Source: a virus
Lineage: Duplodnaviria; Caudoviricetes
Virus record (IMG/VR): IMGVR_UViG_3300024255_001563
Span: 128,001-192,000 of that record
Strand: one strand, 5' to 3'
DNA length: 64,000 nt
The notes beneath the pieces are model-generated. The model ran no database searches. It saw only the letters and a program-made list of their open reading frames with translations, and was not told the DNA's origin. Shown here piece after piece: positions 56,702-64,000 of the stretch; within the stretch, counting starts at the first letter, position 1, and each line of letters starts with the position of its first letter. A program made the position numbers and the translations under genes.

Positions 56702-56730
56702 ATTGTAACACCAGATCTGGCTGTTGTCAA
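56702..56730 (-). promoter_or_regulatory. Sigma70-type promoter
   Basis: TTGACA, 17 nt, TACAAT. Confidence 0.75.
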
Positions 56731-57126: not shown

Positions 57127-57233
57127 TATATTAATCCTTTTTCTCTAAGTTCTGCATCTAAGTTTTTACGTATTGGAGCCTTCATTGCTTTATCAAGTTT
57201 TTCTTGTTGCACTTGATCAAGTGCCCCATGCAT
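57126..57233 (-). CDS. Possible small ORF (35 aa, MHGALDQ...EKGLI)
   Basis: Fills the gap after the queE stop and ends in TAATG coupling with the 57126 gene. It is the tail of the listed 57126-57635 ORF. Confidence 0.35.
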   Translation of the reverse strand: MHGALDQVQQEKLDKAMKAPIRKNLDAELREKGLI

Positions 57234-58176
57234 TTCCGAATAAGGATATGTGGAGTCTGGGCGTGAATCGCCATCCTTTTTCCATACAGACCTGCGCAAC
57301 CTCTTGAACGTTGAGGACATACTCTTCCGAGCGTCCCCCAAGCGGCATACAATATACTGGACACTCAACGCCGACATCACGATATGCTTGCACAGCTCTG
57401 CCAGCTTCTTCAATATCTGCACGATCAGCAACAACAAATTTAAGATAAACATCACTGCCAGCAACAGTGGAATAATTAAGAGCGACACTAGGACGTATAG
57501 CGTCCTCCCAAGATTCTCCGCTAACGGATAGCTTTGGCGAACACGACCATGTGACTGTAATTCTGTCGCTATCGTTGAGATAGTTGTATAAGTCGTCGTG
57601 TAGAACTTGTGTAGTGTTTGTTTCAAATGTGACATTTTTTAAATCCTTCATGCGGGGATGTTCGAACAGCTCTACGTAAAGACGTTGCCACGCTAACAAC
57701 GGTTCACCACCTGTCATAATAAGATGGATATCTTGACCGTTATCCATTGTCCACTTACCTTCTGGAGTAAGCGATAGCAAATGTTCAACTACTTCGTCAA
57801 CTTCTGCAAGTTTGTTAAAGTCTTTAAACTCGGGATAGATACTTGCATAAGTGTCACACCCTGTATGAATGATAGGCAAGTCTGTAAACTTTTCAGTCTT
57901 TTCAACAATGCCATCATCTAGTAAGTCTTTTACTTCTTGATTGTATCGTTGTCCTGCTTCATGCTTCTCTGCACGACTAGGTTCGTCTTTCCCAAGTCCA
58001 AAGTTCATACAACGAAAGTTACAACCGAATGTGCGTAGGAATACACTAGGTACTCCTACAAACTTACCTTCGCCTTGTACTGAATAAAATGCTTCTGAAT
58101 ATCTAAGTTTCATAGCTGGCTTTCTGTTAACTGCTTCATAAGAGGGATAACCTTTTTCAAATACTGGTGCTATCAT
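57217..58176 (-). CDS. queE: 7-carboxy-7-deazaguanine synthase (radical SAM)
   Basis: 'SEAFYSVQGEGKFVGVPSVFLRTFGCNFRC...GCDT', 'MTGGEPL', 'FETNTT', 'SCSPKL', 'FTPRLHI'; next to folE. Start at 58176 via ATGA overlap (58113 is an alternative). Confidence 0.9.
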   Translation of the reverse strand: MIAPVFEKGYPSYEAVNRKPAMKLRYSEAFYSVQGEGKFVGVPSVFLRTFGCNFRCMNFGLGKDEPSRAEKHEAGQRYNQEVKDLLDDGIVEKTEKFTDLPIIHTGCDTYASIYPEFKDFNKLAEVDEVVEHLLSLTPEGKWTMDNGQDIHLIMTGGEPLLAWQRLYVELFEHPRMKDLKNVTFETNTTQVLHDDLYNYLNDSDRITVTWSCSPKLSVSGESWEDAIRPSVALNYSTVAGSDVYLKFVVADRADIEEAGRAVQAYRDVGVECPVYCMPLGGRSEEYVLNVQEVAQVCMEKGWRFTPRLHISLFGNAWGT

Positions 58177-58307
58177 TTGTTTAGCATCCTTGCACAAGTT
58201 AGGAATGAATTCTCTTCAAGGCAATCAGTCCATATATGATTTAAATAAAATCCTATGCCTACAATAAAAATAACTGCGGCAGCACCGTAAATTAATTTCT
58301 CAATCAT
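58173..58307 (-). CDS. Unlisted small membrane protein (44 aa, MIEKLIYGAAAVIFIVGIGFYLNHIWTDCLEENSFLTCARMLNK)
   Basis: TAATG coupling to the folE stop and ATGA coupling to the queE start; single TM segment. Confidence 0.7.
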   Translation of the reverse strand: MIEKLIYGAAAVIFIVGIGFYLNHIWTDCLEENSFLTCARMLNK

Positions 58308-58990
58308 TAGCAACTAAACTCCTGTTGTAGTTTAATGTTATCAAAGAACTCTTTCTTTGTACCTGCGTCATCTTTAAATGCACCACGTAGTACTGTAGTT
58401 TGTGTTAAACTACTGTGTGCCATAATGCCACGATTCTCACAACAACCATGTGTTGCTTGAATATAAACACCTAAATGTTCTGCATCAGTTGCCGCCTGAA
58501 TCTCTCTAGCAATATCATTTGCAAGTTCTTCTTGTAGTGTTCCACGTCTAGCACACCATTGTGCAATACGTGTGTACTTGCTTAGACCAATTAATTTGTC
58601 TGCGGCAATAATACCAATGTATGCAATACCTGCTACTGGCTGGTGATGATGCGAACACATACTCTTTAGTTCCGAACGCACTACTAACATACCTTCATAA
58701 CGATCATCGCTGTCGTTTGGAAATGCTGTTGCAGTTGGAGCAGGGTCATAACGTCCTGCCATAATTTCATTGTAGTACATTTTAGCAAGACGTTTTGCTG
58801 TACCTTTAGAGTTAGGATCTTGATATCTATCAATTACAAGTGCATCTAGTACACTTTCAAATGCTGTAGTTGCTTCGTCGATAAGTGCTTCTTTGTCACC
58901 TTCTTGCAATACTGCACTAATATTGTCGCCAGCCCAGTAACGACTCTTTGCCTGTACTAGGCGGGCTTTAATTTCTTCACTTTTACTCAT
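58307..58990 (-). CDS. folE: GTP cyclohydrolase I
   Basis: 'TAKRLAKMY', 'SMCSHHHQPV', 'IGLSKYTRI', 'LQEEL', 'HGCCENRG', 'KKEFF'. Confidence 0.95.
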   Translation of the reverse strand: MSKSEEIKARLVQAKSRYWAGDNISAVLQEGDKEALIDEATTAFESVLDALVIDRYQDPNSKGTAKRLAKMYYNEIMAGRYDPAPTATAFPNDSDDRYEGMLVVRSELKSMCSHHHQPVAGIAYIGIIAADKLIGLSKYTRIAQWCARRGTLQEELANDIAREIQAATDAEHLGVYIQATHGCCENRGIMAHSSLTQTTVLRGAFKDDAGTKKEFFDNIKLQQEFSC

Positions 58991-59052: not shown

Positions 59053-59081
59053 ATTATACATTGTATTTAGGTTTTTGTCAA
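59053..59081 (-). promoter_or_regulatory. Composite promoter: sigma70 consensus with a late-type motif in the spacer
   Basis: TTGACA-aaaaCCTAAATAcaatg-TATAAT (17-nt spacer containing CTAAATA), upstream of folE. Confidence 0.8.
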
Positions 59082-59306: not shown

Positions 59307-59858
59307 TTAATATTCAGCTACGTTTTCCCAAGGGTAAACTAGCCAAACATCTTCTTCTGTTTTGTTAATTTCGTGACAAGTGTAACGTACATTGTCAAAC
59401 TCACTTGCATCGTTGTTTGTTAGAGTAGCAAATCGAACATTGTTAGCCCAAACACTTGCCCAAGCATTGTCTTCTTGTGGTAAGCAACTTGATTCCCAAT
59501 CTTGTTTAATCCAGTTAAACGTAGCACCAGTATCGTTAATATCATCTACAACAAGAATGTTTTTACGTTTTTTATTATCCCAACGACAGGTTTCTTGTTC
59601 TTCTAGTGGAACATATCCAAACGCATCTTCTGACATCCACAAGTTACTTTCAGGACCCATTTCGTCATCACGTAAACTTACTTTAAGTGCTTCGCAACGA
59701 ATGCCAGTCATATTACTAATAATAGTAGCAGGTACATTGCCACCGCGTGTAAGACCTACAATGTAATCAGGACGCCAGTTGTCAGTGTACATTTGATTAA
59801 CAATGCTTACGCACATGCGTTCAACATCAGTCCAGCTGTAATAATGTTTCTTAATCAT
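59307..59858 (-). CDS. Type I phosphoribosyltransferase (purine PRT-like)
   Basis: 'IVGLTRGG' and PRPP loop 'ILVVDDINDTGAT'; C-terminal 'WLVYPWE' as in xanthine-guanine PRT. Confidence 0.9.
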   Translation of the reverse strand: MIKKHYYSWTDVERMCVSIVNQMYTDNWRPDYIVGLTRGGNVPATIISNMTGIRCEALKVSLRDDEMGPESNLWMSEDAFGYVPLEEQETCRWDNKKRKNILVVDDINDTGATFNWIKQDWESSCLPQEDNAWASVWANNVRFATLTNNDASEFDNVRYTCHEINKTEEDVWLVYPWENVAEY

Positions 59859-60043
59859 TTGCCTTCCTTTGAAGATTTTTCTGCTTTAGATAGTTTGTTG
59901 TTCCAGGTGTTGTTACTAATGCCTAGTTCGCTTGGCATAGGCTTTGTTTTGCCTTTAGTAATTTCACCGCCCTTAGCAAGGAACTCTGCCTTCATGCGTT
60001 CTAGTTCTTCGTCTTTGGGTTTTGCATCGTGGTTCATGCTCAT
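59855..60043 (-). CDS. Hypothetical protein (62 aa)
   Basis: Coupled ORF with RBS. Confidence 0.6.
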   Translation of the reverse strand: MSMNHDAKPKDEELERMKAEFLAKGGEITKGKTKPMPSELGISNNTWNNKLSKAEKSSKEGK

Positions 60044-60061: not shown

Positions 60062-60424
60062 TTAGAATGGGAAGTCGTTATCAAGCTCCCCTGCTTTTCG
60101 TTTGCCTTCATAATCTTGTTTAACCATATCGTATACGCTTTTAAAGTTGCGCCATACTTTAGACAGCGCTGGATATTCTTTGCACATATTGTCAACTTCT
60201 TCTGGGTCAATCATATTATCTAAAACATTAGTATAAGGATATGTGCTGTTGTTATCTATAGTAATAGTTGAAGACGAAGTGTCTGTGCCACTAATAGTAA
60301 TATCACTAAGACTAAGTCCACCATCGGTAATGCTATACGTACCTGTATTACTGCTAATACTATCTAAGTTAATAGTAATATCATCGTCGAGACTAATAGT
60401 AAATGTTTCGTTTTCATTCGCCAT
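60062..60424 (-). CDS. Hypothetical protein (~120 aa), Ser/Thr/Asp-rich N-terminus
   Basis: ATG 60424 with RBS GAGG. Confidence 0.6.
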   Translation of the reverse strand: MANENETFTISLDDDITINLDSISSNTGTYSITDGGLSLSDITISGTDTSSSTITIDNNSTYPYTNVLDNMIDPEEVDNMCKEYPALSKVWRNFKSVYDMVKQDYEGKRKAGELDNDFPF

Positions 60425-61475
60425 CTGCAATCGCCTCATATAATGCTGCACCACTAAAGAATTCTTTGTTAAGTTTTGTACGTTGCTTTTCTAAACTTAC
60501 TTGTAAGTCATCAAAGTTTTCCATGTAGTTTACAATTTGTGCAACTACTTTATCTCTGTTGTGTAAATATGCATCAAAGTTCTCAGTCCATTCACTTGGA
60601 TATTTAAACTCAGGCAGTGCCATTTCACCGTAGCTGAGTCTGTCTGGCACCATAGGAATAGCATCTACTAGAGCACCTTCATACCAACTAATACCTAGTG
60701 TTTCTTGTAGGTTAGCACTAAACACAAGTTTAGCTTCACCTAGTAAGTTATGGTATTCGTTCTTGCTTAATTCCTGTTCTTGGCACACAACAAATTCATA
60801 TTGTGGTAAACGTTCTTTAAGATCTCTAAAGATATCAACTTGTTTCTCAGGAGCAACACGATGTGGAAACAAGATCAAATCTCGCTTTTCCATACCCTTG
60901 TAGCTAGTTAAACTGTCCTTTAGATATTCCATAGGCCAGCCCACACGTTTAATTTTGTCCCAATCAATTACGTAGTCTTCGTCGAATACATCAGTAAACA
61001 TATCAATATGGAAGTCACTTGCAAAGAAGTTATCATCATAACATTCAAACATTGCCATTTCAGCATGTCTTACCCAAGGCTTATCACCTATAAGTCTTCC
61101 TAAAAAATCTTGCGGATCATAACTACCTGCATGCCACAAACCACCAATGCTAATGTCAACACCCAGTAATTCTGCCATATAGCGTAGTTGAATAACTGTA
61201 GGGTTCCAGGCATCGGTATAGAGAAAATAGTCACCGTCTTTAACAGTTCCATTGCAGAACATTTCTCCTATCTGTTCGAGTTGTTTTGATTTGTACACAT
61301 TTGTACCACCAAAGTTAAGGAAAGCCCCAGGCGTTGTAGCCTGAGGCGTTTCCCCACCGCTAATAACTACAACATCTTCATTTGTAGCTCGTCGCAGTTG
61401 CTTTGGAAGATATTCCTTCCATTGCTTAGTATAGCGTGTATCTACTGCTTCAATGTCTACAATATGAATAGTCAT
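60414..61475 (-). CDS. GT-B (GT4-like) glycosyltransferase (353 aa)
   Basis: 'LILFPHRVAPEKQ' and 'QETLGISWYEG' (Ex7E), 'PMVPDRLSYGEM'. Confidence 0.8.
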   Translation of the reverse strand: MTIHIVDIEAVDTRYTKQWKEYLPKQLRRATNEDVVVISGGETPQATTPGAFLNFGGTNVYKSKQLEQIGEMFCNGTVKDGDYFLYTDAWNPTVIQLRYMAELLGVDISIGGLWHAGSYDPQDFLGRLIGDKPWVRHAEMAMFECYDDNFFASDFHIDMFTDVFDEDYVIDWDKIKRVGWPMEYLKDSLTSYKGMEKRDLILFPHRVAPEKQVDIFRDLKERLPQYEFVVCQEQELSKNEYHNLLGEAKLVFSANLQETLGISWYEGALVDAIPMVPDRLSYGEMALPEFKYPSEWTENFDAYLHNRDKVVAQIVNYMENFDDLQVSLEKQRTKLNKEFFSGAALYEAIADGE

Positions 61476-61480
61476 AATTA

Positions 61481-61705
61481 TTATCCTTTGTTGTACTGCT
61501 TGCGAGGACGTTGTACAAAGTCTCGCCCGCCGTTACGGGCCTTTGCTCGTAGCCAACCTTGATACTTTTGATAGGCAATCCAAATCGGTGCATCCTTTTT
61601 ATACAAGTCTGCCTCGTTAAATACTTTACCTTCAAAGCGACAATAGTCACGGTATTGATCAAGATCGTTAAACACTTTATTCACTGCTGGATTAGCAATT
61701 GTCAT
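61481..61705 (-). CDS. Hypothetical protein (74 aa)
   Basis: RBS GAGGA; intact. Confidence 0.7.
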   Translation of the reverse strand: MTIANPAVNKVFNDLDQYRDYCRFEGKVFNEADLYKKDAPIWIAYQKYQGWLRAKARNGGRDFVQRPRKQYNKG

Positions 61706-61720
61706 AATATATTCCTCTTG

Positions 61721-62191
61721 TTATGACTTGGGATAAAAAATAGAACAGCCATTTTCATTGTCTTCAGCTACGCTGATCTCTACAAAGCGGCCAGGGTACT
61801 TTGTAGCGATTTCTTCATACAAGTCATCTGCGATCATTTCGCAGCTCTTGTGATCCAGCTGTAGTACAGATGTAGAGCTATCTACTTCAGCGTACAACCG
61901 TTCCATCCAGCGTTTAAACTGAATGAATTCAATATCGCGATCGTTGTGAAACACTTCGATGCGAACTTTAAAGTGGAAGATATGACGATGCGGAATGCCT
62001 AAGAATGATACATCATCCCAATCGCCGGTTGCTAGTTTAGGATCAGTATCTGCGCCTGGGTACATATGTACCCCCTCTTTATTAAAGGTTACCCAAATAC
62101 TGCGTTCTGCTTTGTTTAGCATGTTTGCTTGTGACATTTTGTCTTCTTCTCTCATTCTACGTAACATGTACTCATAATAGCGTTCTTGCAT
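61721..62191 (-). CDS. dpdL: QueD-paralogue T-fold protein (DpdL-like)
   Basis: 'EGVHMYP...FLGIPHRHIFHF...SCEMIADDL...VAEDNENG'. It has LxxxHRHxF in place of the QueD CxxxHGH motif and sits in the deazaguanine cluster. The symbol rests on a recalled signature. Confidence 0.6.
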   Translation of the reverse strand: MQERYYEYMLRRMREEDKMSQANMLNKAERSIWVTFNKEGVHMYPGADTDPKLATGDWDDVSFLGIPHRHIFHFKVRIEVFHNDRDIEFIQFKRWMERLYAEVDSSTSVLQLDHKSCEMIADDLYEEIATKYPGRFVEISVAEDNENGCSIFYPKS

Positions 62192-62198
62192 TGTATTA

Positions 62199-62227
62199 AG
62201 TATACTTTCACTTTAGAACTTTGTCAA
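62199..62227 (-). promoter_or_regulatory. Sigma70-type promoter
   Basis: TTGACA, 17 nt, TATACT, directly before the QueD-like gene. Confidence 0.75.
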
Positions 62228-62729
62228 GGCCATATTTGCTCCAGTCCGTAAATTTATTACGGTCCATCAAGTCATGCAGGCTATGGCACCAAACGCCTGG
62301 ATTACTTGCTTTAAAATCTTTGTCGTCGATTTTAATCATTGTATTATAATTCCATTGTGCAACATACGGAACTACAACACGAAGTTGCGGAATAAAGTTA
62401 TCACTTTCAACAAGTCCACCGTCTAAAAACCATTCAAGGTTAATAGTGCTTGGAATGTCTAAACTACAAAGGATACCTTGATCCGTAAACGCACGAATCA
62501 TTAGATCCCAATCTTCAAACTCATCTGCTGACACAGGATGATAACTGTGATTAGCACCAAAGAAGATATGTTCGCATTGTTGATATGTGTAATGCATCAT
62601 AATTTCATTATAGTCTTGAACACCAGTAACAAACAGTGTCTTCATTCCAAACGCAGGAGTCTTTTCAACTTCTACGCCTGTAAAGAATATTGGAGTATCG
62701 CTTACGCCACTTTCATAATTACGTTTCAT
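62208..62729 (-). CDS. Hypothetical protein in the deazaguanine cluster (173 aa)
   Basis: Intact, TAATG-coupled; 'FFTGVEVEKTPAFG...EHIFFGANHS...GVWCHSL'. Confidence 0.7.
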   Translation of the reverse strand: MKRNYESGVSDTPIFFTGVEVEKTPAFGMKTLFVTGVQDYNEIMMHYTYQQCEHIFFGANHSYHPVSADEFEDWDLMIRAFTDQGILCSLDIPSTINLEWFLDGGLVESDNFIPQLRVVVPYVAQWNYNTMIKIDDKDFKASNPGVWCHSLHDLMDRNKFTDWSKYGLDKVLK

Positions 62730-63268
62730 TAAAATGCTCCAAAGAGATCGTTTAACTGCTTGCGTGAACTAGACATGCCAAATAAGTTTTCTGCCTTATT
62801 AAATTTTACACGCAACTTCCAACTGTTACTTTTAACTTTTTCTAATATTAAATGTTCAGACTTAGGAGCATTTGTGCCATTCGACAATTGATCTGAAAGT
62901 TCGGCTAGTTCTTCTTCAATAACATCTTGAATTGGTCCAAAGTCAATCTTTCTTACTTCTTTAAGAACGCCGCCTTCGTGAATATGAAGATTCCATTTTT
63001 TAAACTTGTCTAAAAATATGCTACCATCAGTAGCATATATGTTATCAAATGTACTCGAAGCAACACTAATGTGTCCTTTCTTAGTTTTGTCCCAACTTTT
63101 AATTTCAAGATCTAGATCAGGAATATCATTTCCAGGACCGTAGTTAGTTTCTATACCCCGTTCATCATAGGCTCTTTGTATAGCCACTCCGTAACCACCG
63201 TCACCAAACCCGCTCGCCGGTGACACATAACCAGATTCTATTATAGGAATTACTCGATTTACTTGCAT
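62729..63268 (-). CDS. Putative PD-(D/E)XK restriction-endonuclease-like protein (179 aa)
   Basis: 'GNDIPDLDLEIKS' gives PD...ExK, preceded by a helix 'GVAIQRAY'. Confidence 0.45.
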   Translation of the reverse strand: MQVNRVIPIIESGYVSPASGFGDGGYGVAIQRAYDERGIETNYGPGNDIPDLDLEIKSWDKTKKGHISVASSTFDNIYATDGSIFLDKFKKWNLHIHEGGVLKEVRKIDFGPIQDVIEEELAELSDQLSNGTNAPKSEHLILEKVKSNSWKLRVKFNKAENLFGMSSSRKQLNDLFGAF

Positions 63269-63483
63269 TATTCTAAACCTTTTTGTACCAAATATGCATT
63301 GATACGATGCATTTCATCTTTTAGATAAAGTTTCATAGTTTTCATTCTACGAACTTCGTCTGTTATTGTCATATTATTATACTTGGTTTCGAGCTCTGTG
63401 TCAAGCTCTCTATGTTTCCGTTGTAGTTCGTTGTAGTGTGCAAGAAGTTTATCTCTTTCATCTTCATAGTTGCTCATCTTCAA
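63268..63483 (-). CDS. Small coiled-coil protein, DUF465/YdcH-like
   Basis: 'LQRKHRELDTEL...RMKTMKLYLKDEM' pattern. Confidence 0.6.
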   Translation of the reverse strand: MKMSNYEDERDKLLAHYNELQRKHRELDTELETKYNNMTITDEVRRMKTMKLYLKDEMHRINAYLVQKGLE

Positions 63484-64000
63484 GTTCCTCTAATTTAGTC
63501 TCGTCTAGTTCTTCAACAGGTTCAATAGGTTCTTCTACATCAAACAGTGCATCAAAGAATGTCGAACTGTTTACTGTCTTTTTACCAATTGCGCCACGTG
63601 TTCCAGGAATAGCCATCCAAAACTTTGAATATTTCTCGATTGTTTCTAATGACTCTTCTCGAGTTGTCTTTGAAAAGATTTCGTCTATGACATCTCTAAC
63701 TAGTACTCTGTCAAATCGTTCTTGTACAAGCATCTTAGGTATAACACCTGCATCATACTGTCTGTTAGCTTCTTGTACAGCATTGATGTGCGTCCATACG
63801 TTATGACCCATTTGAATAGCATAGCTAAATGAATCCCAGCTTGTTGAGTCTTTCTTGCGTACAATAGGATTACCTTCAGTATCTAATACAGGTTGATCAT
63901 GTTTGTCTAGTTCAACTTCGCCTGCACTTACTTTAGGTACGCCAATCTTGTTGCGATCGCCTTTTTTGTATGTGCAAATATCACTTACTAGCAATCCATC
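63464..64000 (-). CDS. dpdA: C-terminal part of a TGT/DpdA-like transglycosylase (5'-truncated by the window edge)
   Basis: Frame is open to the window end; 'SWDSFSYAIQMGHNVWTHINAVQEAN' resembles the TGT C-terminal helix with HN; it heads the folE/queE cluster. The catalytic region is outside the window. Confidence 0.55.
   Translation of the reverse strand, partial: DGLLVSDICTYKKGDRNKIGVPKVSAGEVELDKHDQPVLDTEGNPIVRKKDSTSWDSFSYAIQMGHNVWTHINAVQEANRQYDAGVIPKMLVQERFDRVLVRDVIDEIFSKTTREESLETIEKYSKFWMAIPGTRGAIGKKTVNSSTFFDALFDVEEPIEPVEELDETKLEELEDEQL

What the first reader, a model, noticed from the sequence alone, without database searches (positions are those of the whole stretch)
60414..62227. GT-B glycosyltransferase co-transcribed with the QueD paralogue
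Seen: one sigma70 promoter (62199-62227) precedes QueD-like, a 74-aa ORF, GT-B, two small ORFs and the PRTase. Established: T-even DNA glucosyltransferases are GT-B enzymes acting on hmC. Inference: candidate for glycosylating a deazaguanine (or other base) in DNA, which would be a new sugar-deazapurine hypermodification.
Basis: inference. Interest (0 to 1): 0.65.

Follow-up and report, generated by a model that had tools for sequence, protein, structure and literature searches.

The report
Sugar transferase inside deazaguanine DNA-modification genes
An abundant uncultured marine jumbo phage carries a real sugar-transferring enzyme that, in phages and in bacterial islands, always sits beside the enzyme that swaps guanine in DNA for 7-deazaguanine, so these genomes may hold a sugar-bearing purine that I found described in no paper.

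Summary
Window 60414-61475 (- strand) encodes a 353-aa protein. Its model is confident (pLDDT 95.6) and has a GT-B fold closest to retaining GT4 enzymes (Z about 25-26). The EX7E motif is intact.

It lies in a tightly packed run behind a near-consensus sigma70-like site (62227-62199). The run holds a T-fold gene, a 74-aa ORF, the GT, two small ORFs and a purine-type PRTase.

The "QueD paralogue" is DpdL of Cui et al. 2023 (motif LxxxHRHxF). A 559-aa gene upstream is a DSGGFQ-bearing DpdA/TGT-like transglycosylase. FolE and QueE follow downstream.

- Of 50,697 phage records, 22 hold the GT and 17 of these hold DpdL. The other 5 are a distant outgroup.
- In IMG/VR loci, DpdL lies within 2 kb in 81/82 and the DpdA-like gene within 8 kb in 38/38.
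- In alphaproteobacterial islands, the DpdA-like gene lies within 4 kb in 16/16, often without DpdL.

So the GT belongs to the deazaguanine DNA-modification module. Its acceptor is untested: it could be the base in DNA or the free base. I found no paper describing such a base.

This scan has reported the same theme before on many other genomes. The prediction can be tested in cultured phages (PA5oct, ACP17, Phosso, X1).

The parts
62199..62227 (-). sigma70-like promoter TTGACA-17-TATACT ahead of dpdL
   Evidence: 11/12. It is one of four sites of 11/12 or better, all on the - strand. Simulation gave a mean of 0.48 and a maximum of 3 in 300 runs.
61721..62191 (-). DpdL, a QueD-fold T-fold protein and predicted CDG decarboxylase. 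The likely real start is at 62137.
   Evidence: phrog_17812 at 4.6e-31. The motif L-GIP-HRH-I-F equals LxxxHRHxF, which defines DpdL in PMC10516641. Homologues at 40-63% identity lie next to the GT in Phosso, PA5oct, ACP17, X1 and BCSR5.
61481..61705 (-). 74-aa basic ORF (pI 9.8), function unknown
   Evidence: It is conserved between dpdL and the GT in most marine-lineage loci.
60414..61475 (-). GT4-like GT-B glycosyltransferase (P0001, 353 aa)
   Evidence: AF2 pLDDT 95.6. Foldseek and VIA matches: SPS Z 26.5, BshA 25.7, MshA 25.0. EX7E = E258/E266, with R206/K211 conserved. The family profile hits AmGGT 8xsg at E 3e-5 with EX7E aligned. PF00534 is found in 30/40 relatives.
60062..60454 (-). 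130-aa acidic ORF overlapping the GT stop by 41 nt, function unknown
   Evidence: tblastn hits at the same position in many related loci.
59855..60043 (-). 62-aa ORF, function unknown
   Evidence: Weak phrog_14822 hit.
59307..59858 (-). purine-type phosphoribosyltransferase
   Evidence: PF00156 at 2.9e-8. The closest PDB sequences are HGPRT and archaeal purine PRTases. Six of its nine phage-database homologues are in DpdL-bearing phages, including the phiST group.
59053..59081 (-). consensus sigma70-like promoter ahead of folE
   Evidence: 12/12.
58307..58990 (-). FolE, GTP cyclohydrolase I
   Evidence: PF01227 at 1.4e-38.
57217..58197 (-). QueE-like radical SAM enzyme (CDG synthase)
   Evidence: phrog_2076 at 5.4e-50.
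62208..62729 (-). 173-aa ORF of unknown function, conserved upstream of dpdL
   Evidence: Present about 1.3 kb upstream of the GT in nearly all marine loci. It has a homologue in ACP17 between folE and dpdA. No family or Atlas lead.
63464..64000 (-). 3' part of the 559-aa DpdA/TGT-like transglycosylase. The gene runs to 65143, beyond the window (L003:1464-3143).
   Evidence: DSGGFQ motif. hhalign against the X1/ACP17/BCSR5 DpdA: 96.2%, E 2e-9. All top-50 Foldseek matches of a low-confidence model are TGT/QTRT1. It is 32% identical to PA5oct gp316.

Best explanation
The 353-aa protein is an active, NDP-sugar-dependent glycosyltransferase of the retaining GT4 type. It is a dedicated part of a DpdA-dependent 7-deazaguanine DNA-modification module.

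Shown: the fold, the intact donor-side catalytic motifs, and near-invariant linkage to a DSGGxQ DpdA-like transglycosylase and, in phages, to DpdL, FolE and QueE.

Inferred pathway: FolE, an unidentified QueD activity and QueE make 7-carboxy-7-deazaguanine from GTP. DpdL converts it, probably to 7-deazaguanine as proposed for phiST. The DpdA-like enzyme exchanges it for guanine in phage DNA. The GT puts a sugar on the deazaguanine, either after insertion (the logic of T4 glucosylation of hmC) or on the free base before insertion. The virion DNA would then carry a glycosylated 7-deazaguanine that blocks restriction and glycosylase defences.

The attachment atom and the sugar are unknown. The exocyclic N2, as in huimycin, is the only site with a chemical precedent.
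For: Fold and motifs.

Synteny in cultured phages: Phosso, PA5oct, ACP17, BCSR5 and X1 all have the GT next to DpdL/DpdA/FolE/QueE.

Phage database: 17 of 22 GT-bearing records are among the 28 DpdL-bearing records, out of 50,697.

IMG/VR loci at 28-92% GT identity: DpdL within 2 kb in 81/82, DpdA-like within 8 kb in 38/38, FolE and QueE each in 35/38.

The lineage at 27% identity (L089-L091) has the order polB-DpdL-GT-DpdA.

Alphaproteobacterial islands: DpdA-like within 4 kb in 16/16, some carrying a YhhQ/Vut_1-type precursor transporter in place of the biosynthetic genes.

No ThyA-family hydroxymethylase in the 200-kb contig, so the usual hmC/hmU acceptor is not provided.

Literature: PA5oct DNA resists G-site restriction enzymes and is targeted by a nuclease family that the authors propose senses hypermodified bases; its base is chemically unidentified (PMC12191111). 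A GT4-type enzyme, HuiG, glycosylates N2 of a 7-deazapurine (PMC7439116; 10.64898/2026.04.15.718813).
Against: No chemistry has been measured for any GT-bearing phage.

7-Deazaguanine has no hydroxyl for ordinary O-glycosylation.

The best structural matches (sucrose-phosphate synthase, BshA, MshA, LmbT) use small-molecule acceptors, and the T4 enzymes are not among the top 50.

The protein is strongly acidic (pI 4.65; family median 5.6), which is unlike what I recall of a classic DNA-binding GT. The DpdA-like protein is acidic too.

DpdL-bearing phages without this GT exist. phiST replaces all G with plain dDG, so the GT is not needed for dDG itself.

The window protein itself misses every Pfam threshold.
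Confidence: 0.55

Rival explanations
1. The GT works only on the soluble pool. It glycosylates a free 7-deazaguanine base or nucleotide (huimycin-like chemistry), and the product is a metabolite, a storage or export form, or an inhibitor that never enters DNA.
For: The closest folds are small-molecule GT4 enzymes. The protein is acidic. There is a HuiG precedent. A purine PRTase in the same operon shows that base- or nucleotide-level chemistry goes on here.
Against: The invariant neighbour is the DNA transglycosylase homologue, not the biosynthetic genes, and this holds even in bacterial islands that lack FolE/QueE. The cluster sits among replication genes.
Confidence: 0.15
2. The GT acts with DpdA but on another target: another base, a DNA end, or the DpdA-like protein itself. 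Alternatively it is a structural partner of DpdA.
For: The linkage is to DpdA rather than to any one 7-substituent pathway. DpdL is absent from about half of the bacterial islands. No obvious acceptor group exists on dDG.
Against: EX7E, R206 and K211 are invariant or nearly so across the family, which argues for catalysis with an NDP-sugar. No hydroxymethylase is present to supply hmC or hmU.
Confidence: 0.13
3. The GT is unrelated to DNA and serves phage or host glycan synthesis. Its position reflects hitch-hiking in the replication module.
For: Nucleotide-sugar genes lie near polB. A remote relative in PhiXhv-12 sits with GlmS and a deacetylase and has no deazaguanine genes nearby.
Against: The pairing with DpdA/DpdL persists through rearranged gene orders, down to 24-28% identity, and in non-phage islands that lack replication genes.
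Confidence: 0.05

Closest known systems
DpdL/DpdA 7-deazaguanine (dDG) system of Cellulophaga phage phiST (Cui, Hutinet et al., NAR 2023, PMC10516641)
   Same: FolE, QueE and DpdL with LxxxHRHxF. No QueC. A TGT-superfamily transglycosylase. A purine PRTase homologue is also encoded by phiST.
   Different: phiST has no GT of this family. Its transglycosylase is the short DpdA3 (259 aa), which lacks the DSGGxQ motif and is only weakly similar (hhalign 64.6%). The paper never mentions a glycosyltransferase. It co-expressed ACP17 dpdL and dpdA without the GT gene that lies between them.
T4 alpha- and beta-glucosyltransferases (hmC-DNA glucosylation)
   Same: GT-B fold. A phage enzyme placed among replication and modification genes. 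The same expected pay-off: a sugar shield on a non-canonical base.
   Different: No detectable sequence relation. They are not among the top structural matches. The proposed acceptor is a purine analogue without a hydroxymethyl group, and no hydroxymethylase gene was found.
HuiG of the huimycin pathway (GT4-type, PF13439), which attaches GlcNAc to the 2-amino group of a 7-deazapurine base
   Same: A GT4-type GT-B enzyme encoded beside FolE/QueD/QueE homologues. The acceptor is a 7-deazaguanine-derived base.
   Different: It is an actinomycete secondary-metabolite enzyme acting on a free, O-methylated preQ0 base. There is no DpdA and no DNA involved.
QTMAN/GTDC1, the eukaryotic GT that mannosylates queuosine in tRNA (from my own knowledge; also raised by earlier notes e1-5973801 and e1-5804470)
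   Same: A GT-B enzyme that glycosylates a 7-deazaguanine derivative already sitting in a nucleic acid.
   Different: Its acceptor is the cyclopentenediol of queuosine, which these phages cannot make. Its DUF3524 N-domain was not detected in any of 40 family members or among the nearest Atlas clusters.
AmGGT/Agt alpha-1,6-glucosyltransferases of Actinobacillus (PDB 8xsg)
   Same: The only solved structure reached by the family's sequence profile (E 3e-5). Its EX7E glutamates, E223 and E231, are among the residues whose alanine mutants had the strongest effect on glucosyl transfer, and they align with E258/E266.
   Different: It acts on glucosides and glycopeptides. Only the C-terminal donor domain aligns.

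Membership tests
Retaining GT4-type GT-B glycosyltransferases (Pfam Glycos_transf_1 clan) | Two-Rossmann-domain GT-B fold | tested here: met
   pLDDT 95.6. Full-length matches at Z 22-26.5, rmsd about 3 A over about 300 residues.
Retaining GT4-type GT-B glycosyltransferases (Pfam Glycos_transf_1 clan) | EX7E motif and basic R/K pair in the C-terminal donor domain | tested here: met
   E258 is nearly invariant, E266 invariant, and R206/K211 nearly invariant in 40 sequences. The motif aligns to AmGGT E223/E231.
Retaining GT4-type GT-B glycosyltransferases (Pfam Glycos_transf_1 clan) | Match to PF00534/PF13439 above the curated threshold | tested here: inconclusive
   P0001 has no hit. Of 40 relatives, 30 match PF00534 at E <= 1 (best 6.5e-7) and 3 match PF13439 weakly.
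Retaining GT4-type GT-B glycosyltransferases (Pfam Glycos_transf_1 clan) | NDP-sugar donor use with retention of configuration | not testable with these tools
   Needs an enzyme assay.
T4-type DNA hmC glucosyltransferases (AGT/BGT) | Sequence or closest-fold relation to AGT or BGT | tested here: inconclusive
   No PDB sequence hit. Neither is listed among the 50 rows shown by Foldseek or VIA, which does not exclude a distant relation.
T4-type DNA hmC glucosyltransferases (AGT/BGT) | Genome supplies hydroxymethyl-pyrimidine (ThyA-family hydroxymethylase) | tested here: inconclusive
   No PF00303 match in the 200.8-kb contig, but CheckV rates the contig 57% complete.
DpdL-type 7-deazaguanine DNA-modification system | DpdL with LxxxHRHxF in place of the QueD motif CxxxHGH | tested here: met
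   The protein reads FLGIPHRHIF. The definition is in PMC10516641.
DpdL-type 7-deazaguanine DNA-modification system | FolE and QueE present, QueC absent | tested here: met
   No PF06508 match in the contig.
DpdL-type 7-deazaguanine DNA-modification system | Canonical QueD (PTPS) | tested here: not met
   No PF01242 match at E <= 10 in the contig. It may lie in the missing part, come from the host, or be too divergent to detect.
DpdL-type 7-deazaguanine DNA-modification system | DpdA-family (TGT-fold) transglycosylase | tested here: met
   Pfam TGT is negative. The DSGGFQ motif is present, hhalign gives 96.2% / E 2e-9 against annotated phage DpdA, and TGT is the only fold among the top 50 matches of a low-confidence model.
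DpdL-type 7-deazaguanine DNA-modification system | 7-deazaguanine derivative present in virion DNA | not testable with these tools
   The phage is uncultured. Mass spectrometry on cultured relatives is needed.
QTMAN/GTDC1 queuosine mannosyltransferases | DUF3524 (PF12038) N-terminal domain | tested here: not met
   It is not among the families hit by any of 40 members at E <= 1.

The most novel reading that the evidence does not exclude
DpdA-like transglycosylase plus this GT form a two-gene core that writes a sugar-bearing 7-deazaguanine into DNA. This would be the first glycosylated purine analogue in a genome. The core is used by abundant marine jumbo phages, by PA5oct-type Pseudomonas phages and by alphaproteobacterial mobile or defence islands. 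It is fed either by a phage CDG/DpdL pathway or by imported queuosine precursors.
Probability: 0.5. Interest if true: 0.85.

Novelty: new variant of a known kind. Interest (0 to 1): 0.72.

Why it matters
As far as I know, DNA glycosylation is known only on pyrimidines. The eight 7-deazaguanine marks listed by Cui et al. carry no sugar. A sugar-bearing deazaguanine would be a new class of DNA hypermodification.

It could explain why PA5oct DNA resists G-site restriction enzymes yet is attacked by nucleases that sense hypermodified bases. It could also explain why ACP17 dpdL plus dpdA failed to reconstitute dDG: the GT gene that lies between them was left out.

The gene family is very abundant. 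More than 8,000 close relatives turned up in ocean metagenomes, and 1,168 clusters at 50% identity.

The idea can be tested now in cultured phages and in sequenced bacterial isolates.

Tried and rejected
- Megablast of the region against the phage database: no match.
- Pfam, PHROGs and a PDB sequence search on the GT itself: nothing usable.
- A single-protein scan with P0254 found nothing.
It was repeated with A5.
- The profile of the DpdA-like family against PDB sequences gave no hit. Its AF2 model is poor (pLDDT 56), so only the uniform TGT ranking was used.
- The Atlas search on the 173-aa ORF gave chance-level leads only.
- Supplementary tables of Cui et al. are not held.
- T4 AGT/BGT do not appear among the top structural matches, which is not proof of absence.
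- The QTMAN idea: DUF3524 was not detected. No direct comparison was made with the human protein.
- Rejected reading: an hmC/hmU glucosyltransferase, because no hydroxymethylase gene was found.
- Rejected reading: the GT is required for dDG formation as such, because phiST makes dDG without it.
Full report
**What is there.** The window is bases 128001-192000 of a 200.8-kb viral contig that CheckV rates 57% complete. Between 55.5 kb and the window end, every sizeable ORF is on the - strand.

In transcription order the run continues upstream into L003:
- family-B DNA polymerase
- a cytidylyltransferase-like gene, closest to ethanolamine-phosphate and glycerol-3-phosphate cytidylyltransferases; its PHROG family is named for an ADP-heptose enzyme
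- a eukaryote-type phosphomannomutase-like HAD protein
- a 255-aa NAD-dependent epimerase/dehydratase
- a 559-aa ORF
- ORFs of 71, 179 and 173 aa
- the T-fold gene
- a 74-aa ORF
- the 353-aa protein in question
- ORFs of 130 and 62 aa
- a PRTase
- a 69-aa ORF
- FolE and a QueE-like radical SAM enzyme
- a 131-aa ORF
- a 5'-3' exonuclease.

**The observation.** The promoter-like site at 62227-62199 is TTGACA-17-TATACT. Loose promoter-like matches are no more frequent than in shuffles. Matches of 11/12 or better are enriched: four occur in 9 kb, all on the coding strand, against a simulated mean of 0.48 and a maximum of 3 in 300 runs. The next such site sits just ahead of folE. A unit running from dpdL to the PRTase is therefore reasonable, though it is inferred from sequence alone.

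**The glycosyltransferase.** The protein itself hits nothing in Pfam, PHROGs or PDB sequences.
- An exhaustive search found 1,168 clusters at 50% identity with E <= 0.001. The word-indexed search filled its 8,000-candidate limit, and the 120 rows shown are mostly marine metagenome proteins at about 90% identity.
- With a 40-sequence alignment, AlphaFold2 gives pLDDT 95.6 and pTM 0.92.
- Foldseek and VIA-align put it with retaining GT-B enzymes over its full length. These are sucrose-phosphate synthase (Z 26.5), BshA (25.7), MshA (25.0), GlgM, PglA, PimA and glycogen synthase.
- The EX7E signature (E258, E266) and the R206/K211 pair are invariant or nearly so.
- The family profile reaches one solved structure, AmGGT (8xsg), with EX7E aligned to its glutamates E223 and E231. 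These are among the residues whose alanine mutants most strongly affected glucosyl transfer.
- Thirty of 40 relatives give weak PF00534 hits.

It is a divergent but evidently catalytic GT4-like enzyme. The N-terminal acceptor domain has its own conserved set of acidic and aromatic residues: E9, R14, Y15, W19, Q65, D82, D88, W90, H115, D120, D123, E139 and D147.

**The neighbours.** The "QueD paralogue" carries LGIPHRHIF, the LxxxHRHxF motif by which Cui et al. define DpdL. They predict DpdL to be a CDG decarboxylase but did not show this biochemically.

The 559-aa ORF is negative for Pfam TGT, yet three lines point to a DpdA-family transglycosylase:
- It has the TGT hallmark DSGGFQ.
- It aligns by hhalign with the annotated transglycosylases of phages X1, ACP17 and BCSR5 (96.2%, E 2e-9, once bacterial members are added).
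- Even its poor model (pLDDT 56) returns only TGT/QTRT1 among the top 50 matches.

No QueC, canonical QueD or ThyA-type hydroxymethylase was detected in the contig. The pathway therefore stops at or near CDG, as in phiST, and no hydroxymethyl-pyrimidine acceptor is supplied.

- Phage database (50,697 records): the GT is found in 22 records and DpdL in 28, with 17 shared. The shared records are Phosso, eleven PA5oct-type phages, ACP17 (two records), X1, BUDD and BCSR5.
- The five GT-only records (PhiXhv-12 type) match at 25% identity over 64% of the length. They form the long-branch outgroup of the family tree and sit with GlmS and an LmbE-type deacetylase.
- In each cultured lineage the GT is embedded among DpdL, the transglycosylase, FolE and QueE, in a different gene order each time.
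- Among 138 non-identical IMG/VR loci (28-92% GT identity), counted where flanks allow: DpdL lies within 2 kb in 81/82, the DpdA-like gene within 8 kb in 38/38, FolE in 35/38, QueE in 35/38, the PRTase in 29/38 and the epimerase in 19/38.
- A scan of one genome per prokaryotic species found the family in alphaproteobacterial isolates as well: Ochrobactrum, Devosia, Pelagibacterium, Aurantimonas, Azospirillum and Magnetospirillum. There the DpdA-like gene lies within 4 kb in 16/16, DpdL within 2 kb in 8/16 and FolE in none.
- Ochrobactrum and Devosia have the order DpdA-like, YhhQ/Vut_1-type transporter, GT. They are flanked by integrase or resolvase genes, and Ochrobactrum also has a GmrSD nuclease nearby.
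- Magnetospirillum has the order CoiA-like nuclease, GT, DpdL, DpdA-like, QueD.
- Pelagibacterium has an OLD-family nuclease nearby.

The invariant partner of the GT is thus the DSGGxQ transglycosylase. phiST's DpdA3 lacks this motif, is only weakly similar, and has no GT beside it.

**How it most likely works.**
- Shown: a catalytic-looking GT-B enzyme genetically locked to a DNA transglycosylase homologue and to 7-deazaguanine biosynthesis or import.
- Inferred: it glycosylates the deazaguanine that ends up in DNA.
- Open: whether this happens on DNA (T4 logic) or on the free base (HuiG logic). For DNA speaks the tie to DpdA rather than to biosynthesis. For a small acceptor speak the closest folds and the acidity (pI 4.65).
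- The attachment atom is unknown. N2 has a natural-product precedent, whereas dDG offers no hydroxyl.
- The phage's own nucleotide-sugar genes may supply the donor. In several loci the epimerase moves to sit directly after the GT (L095, L139, L147). These genes are lineage-specific, and the same phage has a glycan operon that could also use them.

**Literature.** Cui et al. 2023 list eight deazaguanine derivatives and no glycosyltransferase. PA5oct DNA has a suspected modified G of unknown identity. Searches combining deazaguanine or DpdA with glycosyltransferase or glycosylation terms found no description of a glycosylated deazaguanine in DNA. The held library is incomplete, so this is not proof of novelty.

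**Relation to the rest of this scan.** Earlier notes and follow-up reports on many other genomes reached the same reading. They are not independent evidence. My own tests agree with them.

**Verdict.** It is a new variant of known kinds, namely DNA base glycosylation and 7-deazaguanine DNA modification.

Noticed in passing
window 59307-59858 (-): Six of the nine phage-database homologues of the purine-type PRTase are in DpdL-bearing phages: five records of the phiST group, whose G is fully replaced by dDG, and Synechococcus phage BUCT-ZZ01. None of these six has the GT. This suggests either a nucleotide-level step like the tubercidin pathway (CDG or DG plus PRPP) or salvage of the guanine released by DpdA.
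   Followed up: partly
window 62729-63268 (-): The 179-aa ORF between the DpdA-like gene and the 173-aa ORF has no counterpart in any of 80 closely related loci. It looks like a recent insertion, for example a homing-type nuclease.
   Followed up: partly
L089:1590-2618 and L089:10007-11065: One 115-kb viral contig carries two paralogues of the GT (58% and 28% identical to the window protein). One lies next to folE and the other between dpdL and the DpdA-like gene. L090 also has a second, remote copy. This could mean two sugars or two linkages.
   Followed up: no
L176, L180, L182, L178, L193 (bacterial genomes): Alphaproteobacterial islands carry DpdA-like plus GT, sometimes with a YhhQ/Vut_1 precursor transporter. 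They sit beside GmrSD, OLD-family, HEPN or CoiA-like nuclease genes and integrase or resolvase genes. This may be a modification-restriction system distinct from the known Dpd system.
   Followed up: partly
L008:9408-10232 (Rhizobium phage RHph_I1_18): This DpdL-bearing phage lacks the GT. A macro-domain (Appr-1-p processing) gene follows dpdL at the position where the GT sits in other phages.
   Followed up: no
L007:6669-9903 (Xanthomonas phage PhiXhv-12): The outgroup GT lies in a GlmS, LmbE-type deacetylase, GT trio with no deazaguanine genes nearby. This may be a different, amino-sugar-based modification.
   Followed up: no
window 63376-63404, 59053-59081, 56702-56730 (-): Three more near-consensus sigma70-like promoters lie on the coding strand at gene junctions of this cluster. 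Together with 62199-62227 they are far more than simulated sequence gives.
   Followed up: yes
L003:3825-5706 (window 65825-67706, beyond the window end): A nucleotide-sugar or CDP-alcohol activation trio lies between polB and the DpdA-like gene: a TagD/ECT-like nucleotidyltransferase, a eukaryote-type PMM-like HAD protein and a short SDR epimerase/dehydratase. The first two are present in only about half of the related loci, while the epimerase is retained more widely and sometimes sits directly after the GT.
   Followed up: partly
whole 200.8-kb contig: No canonical QueD (PF01242) was detected, although FolE, QueE and DpdL are present. The step that makes CPH4 is unassigned. The conserved 173-aa ORF at 62208-62729 is uncharacterised.
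   Followed up: partly
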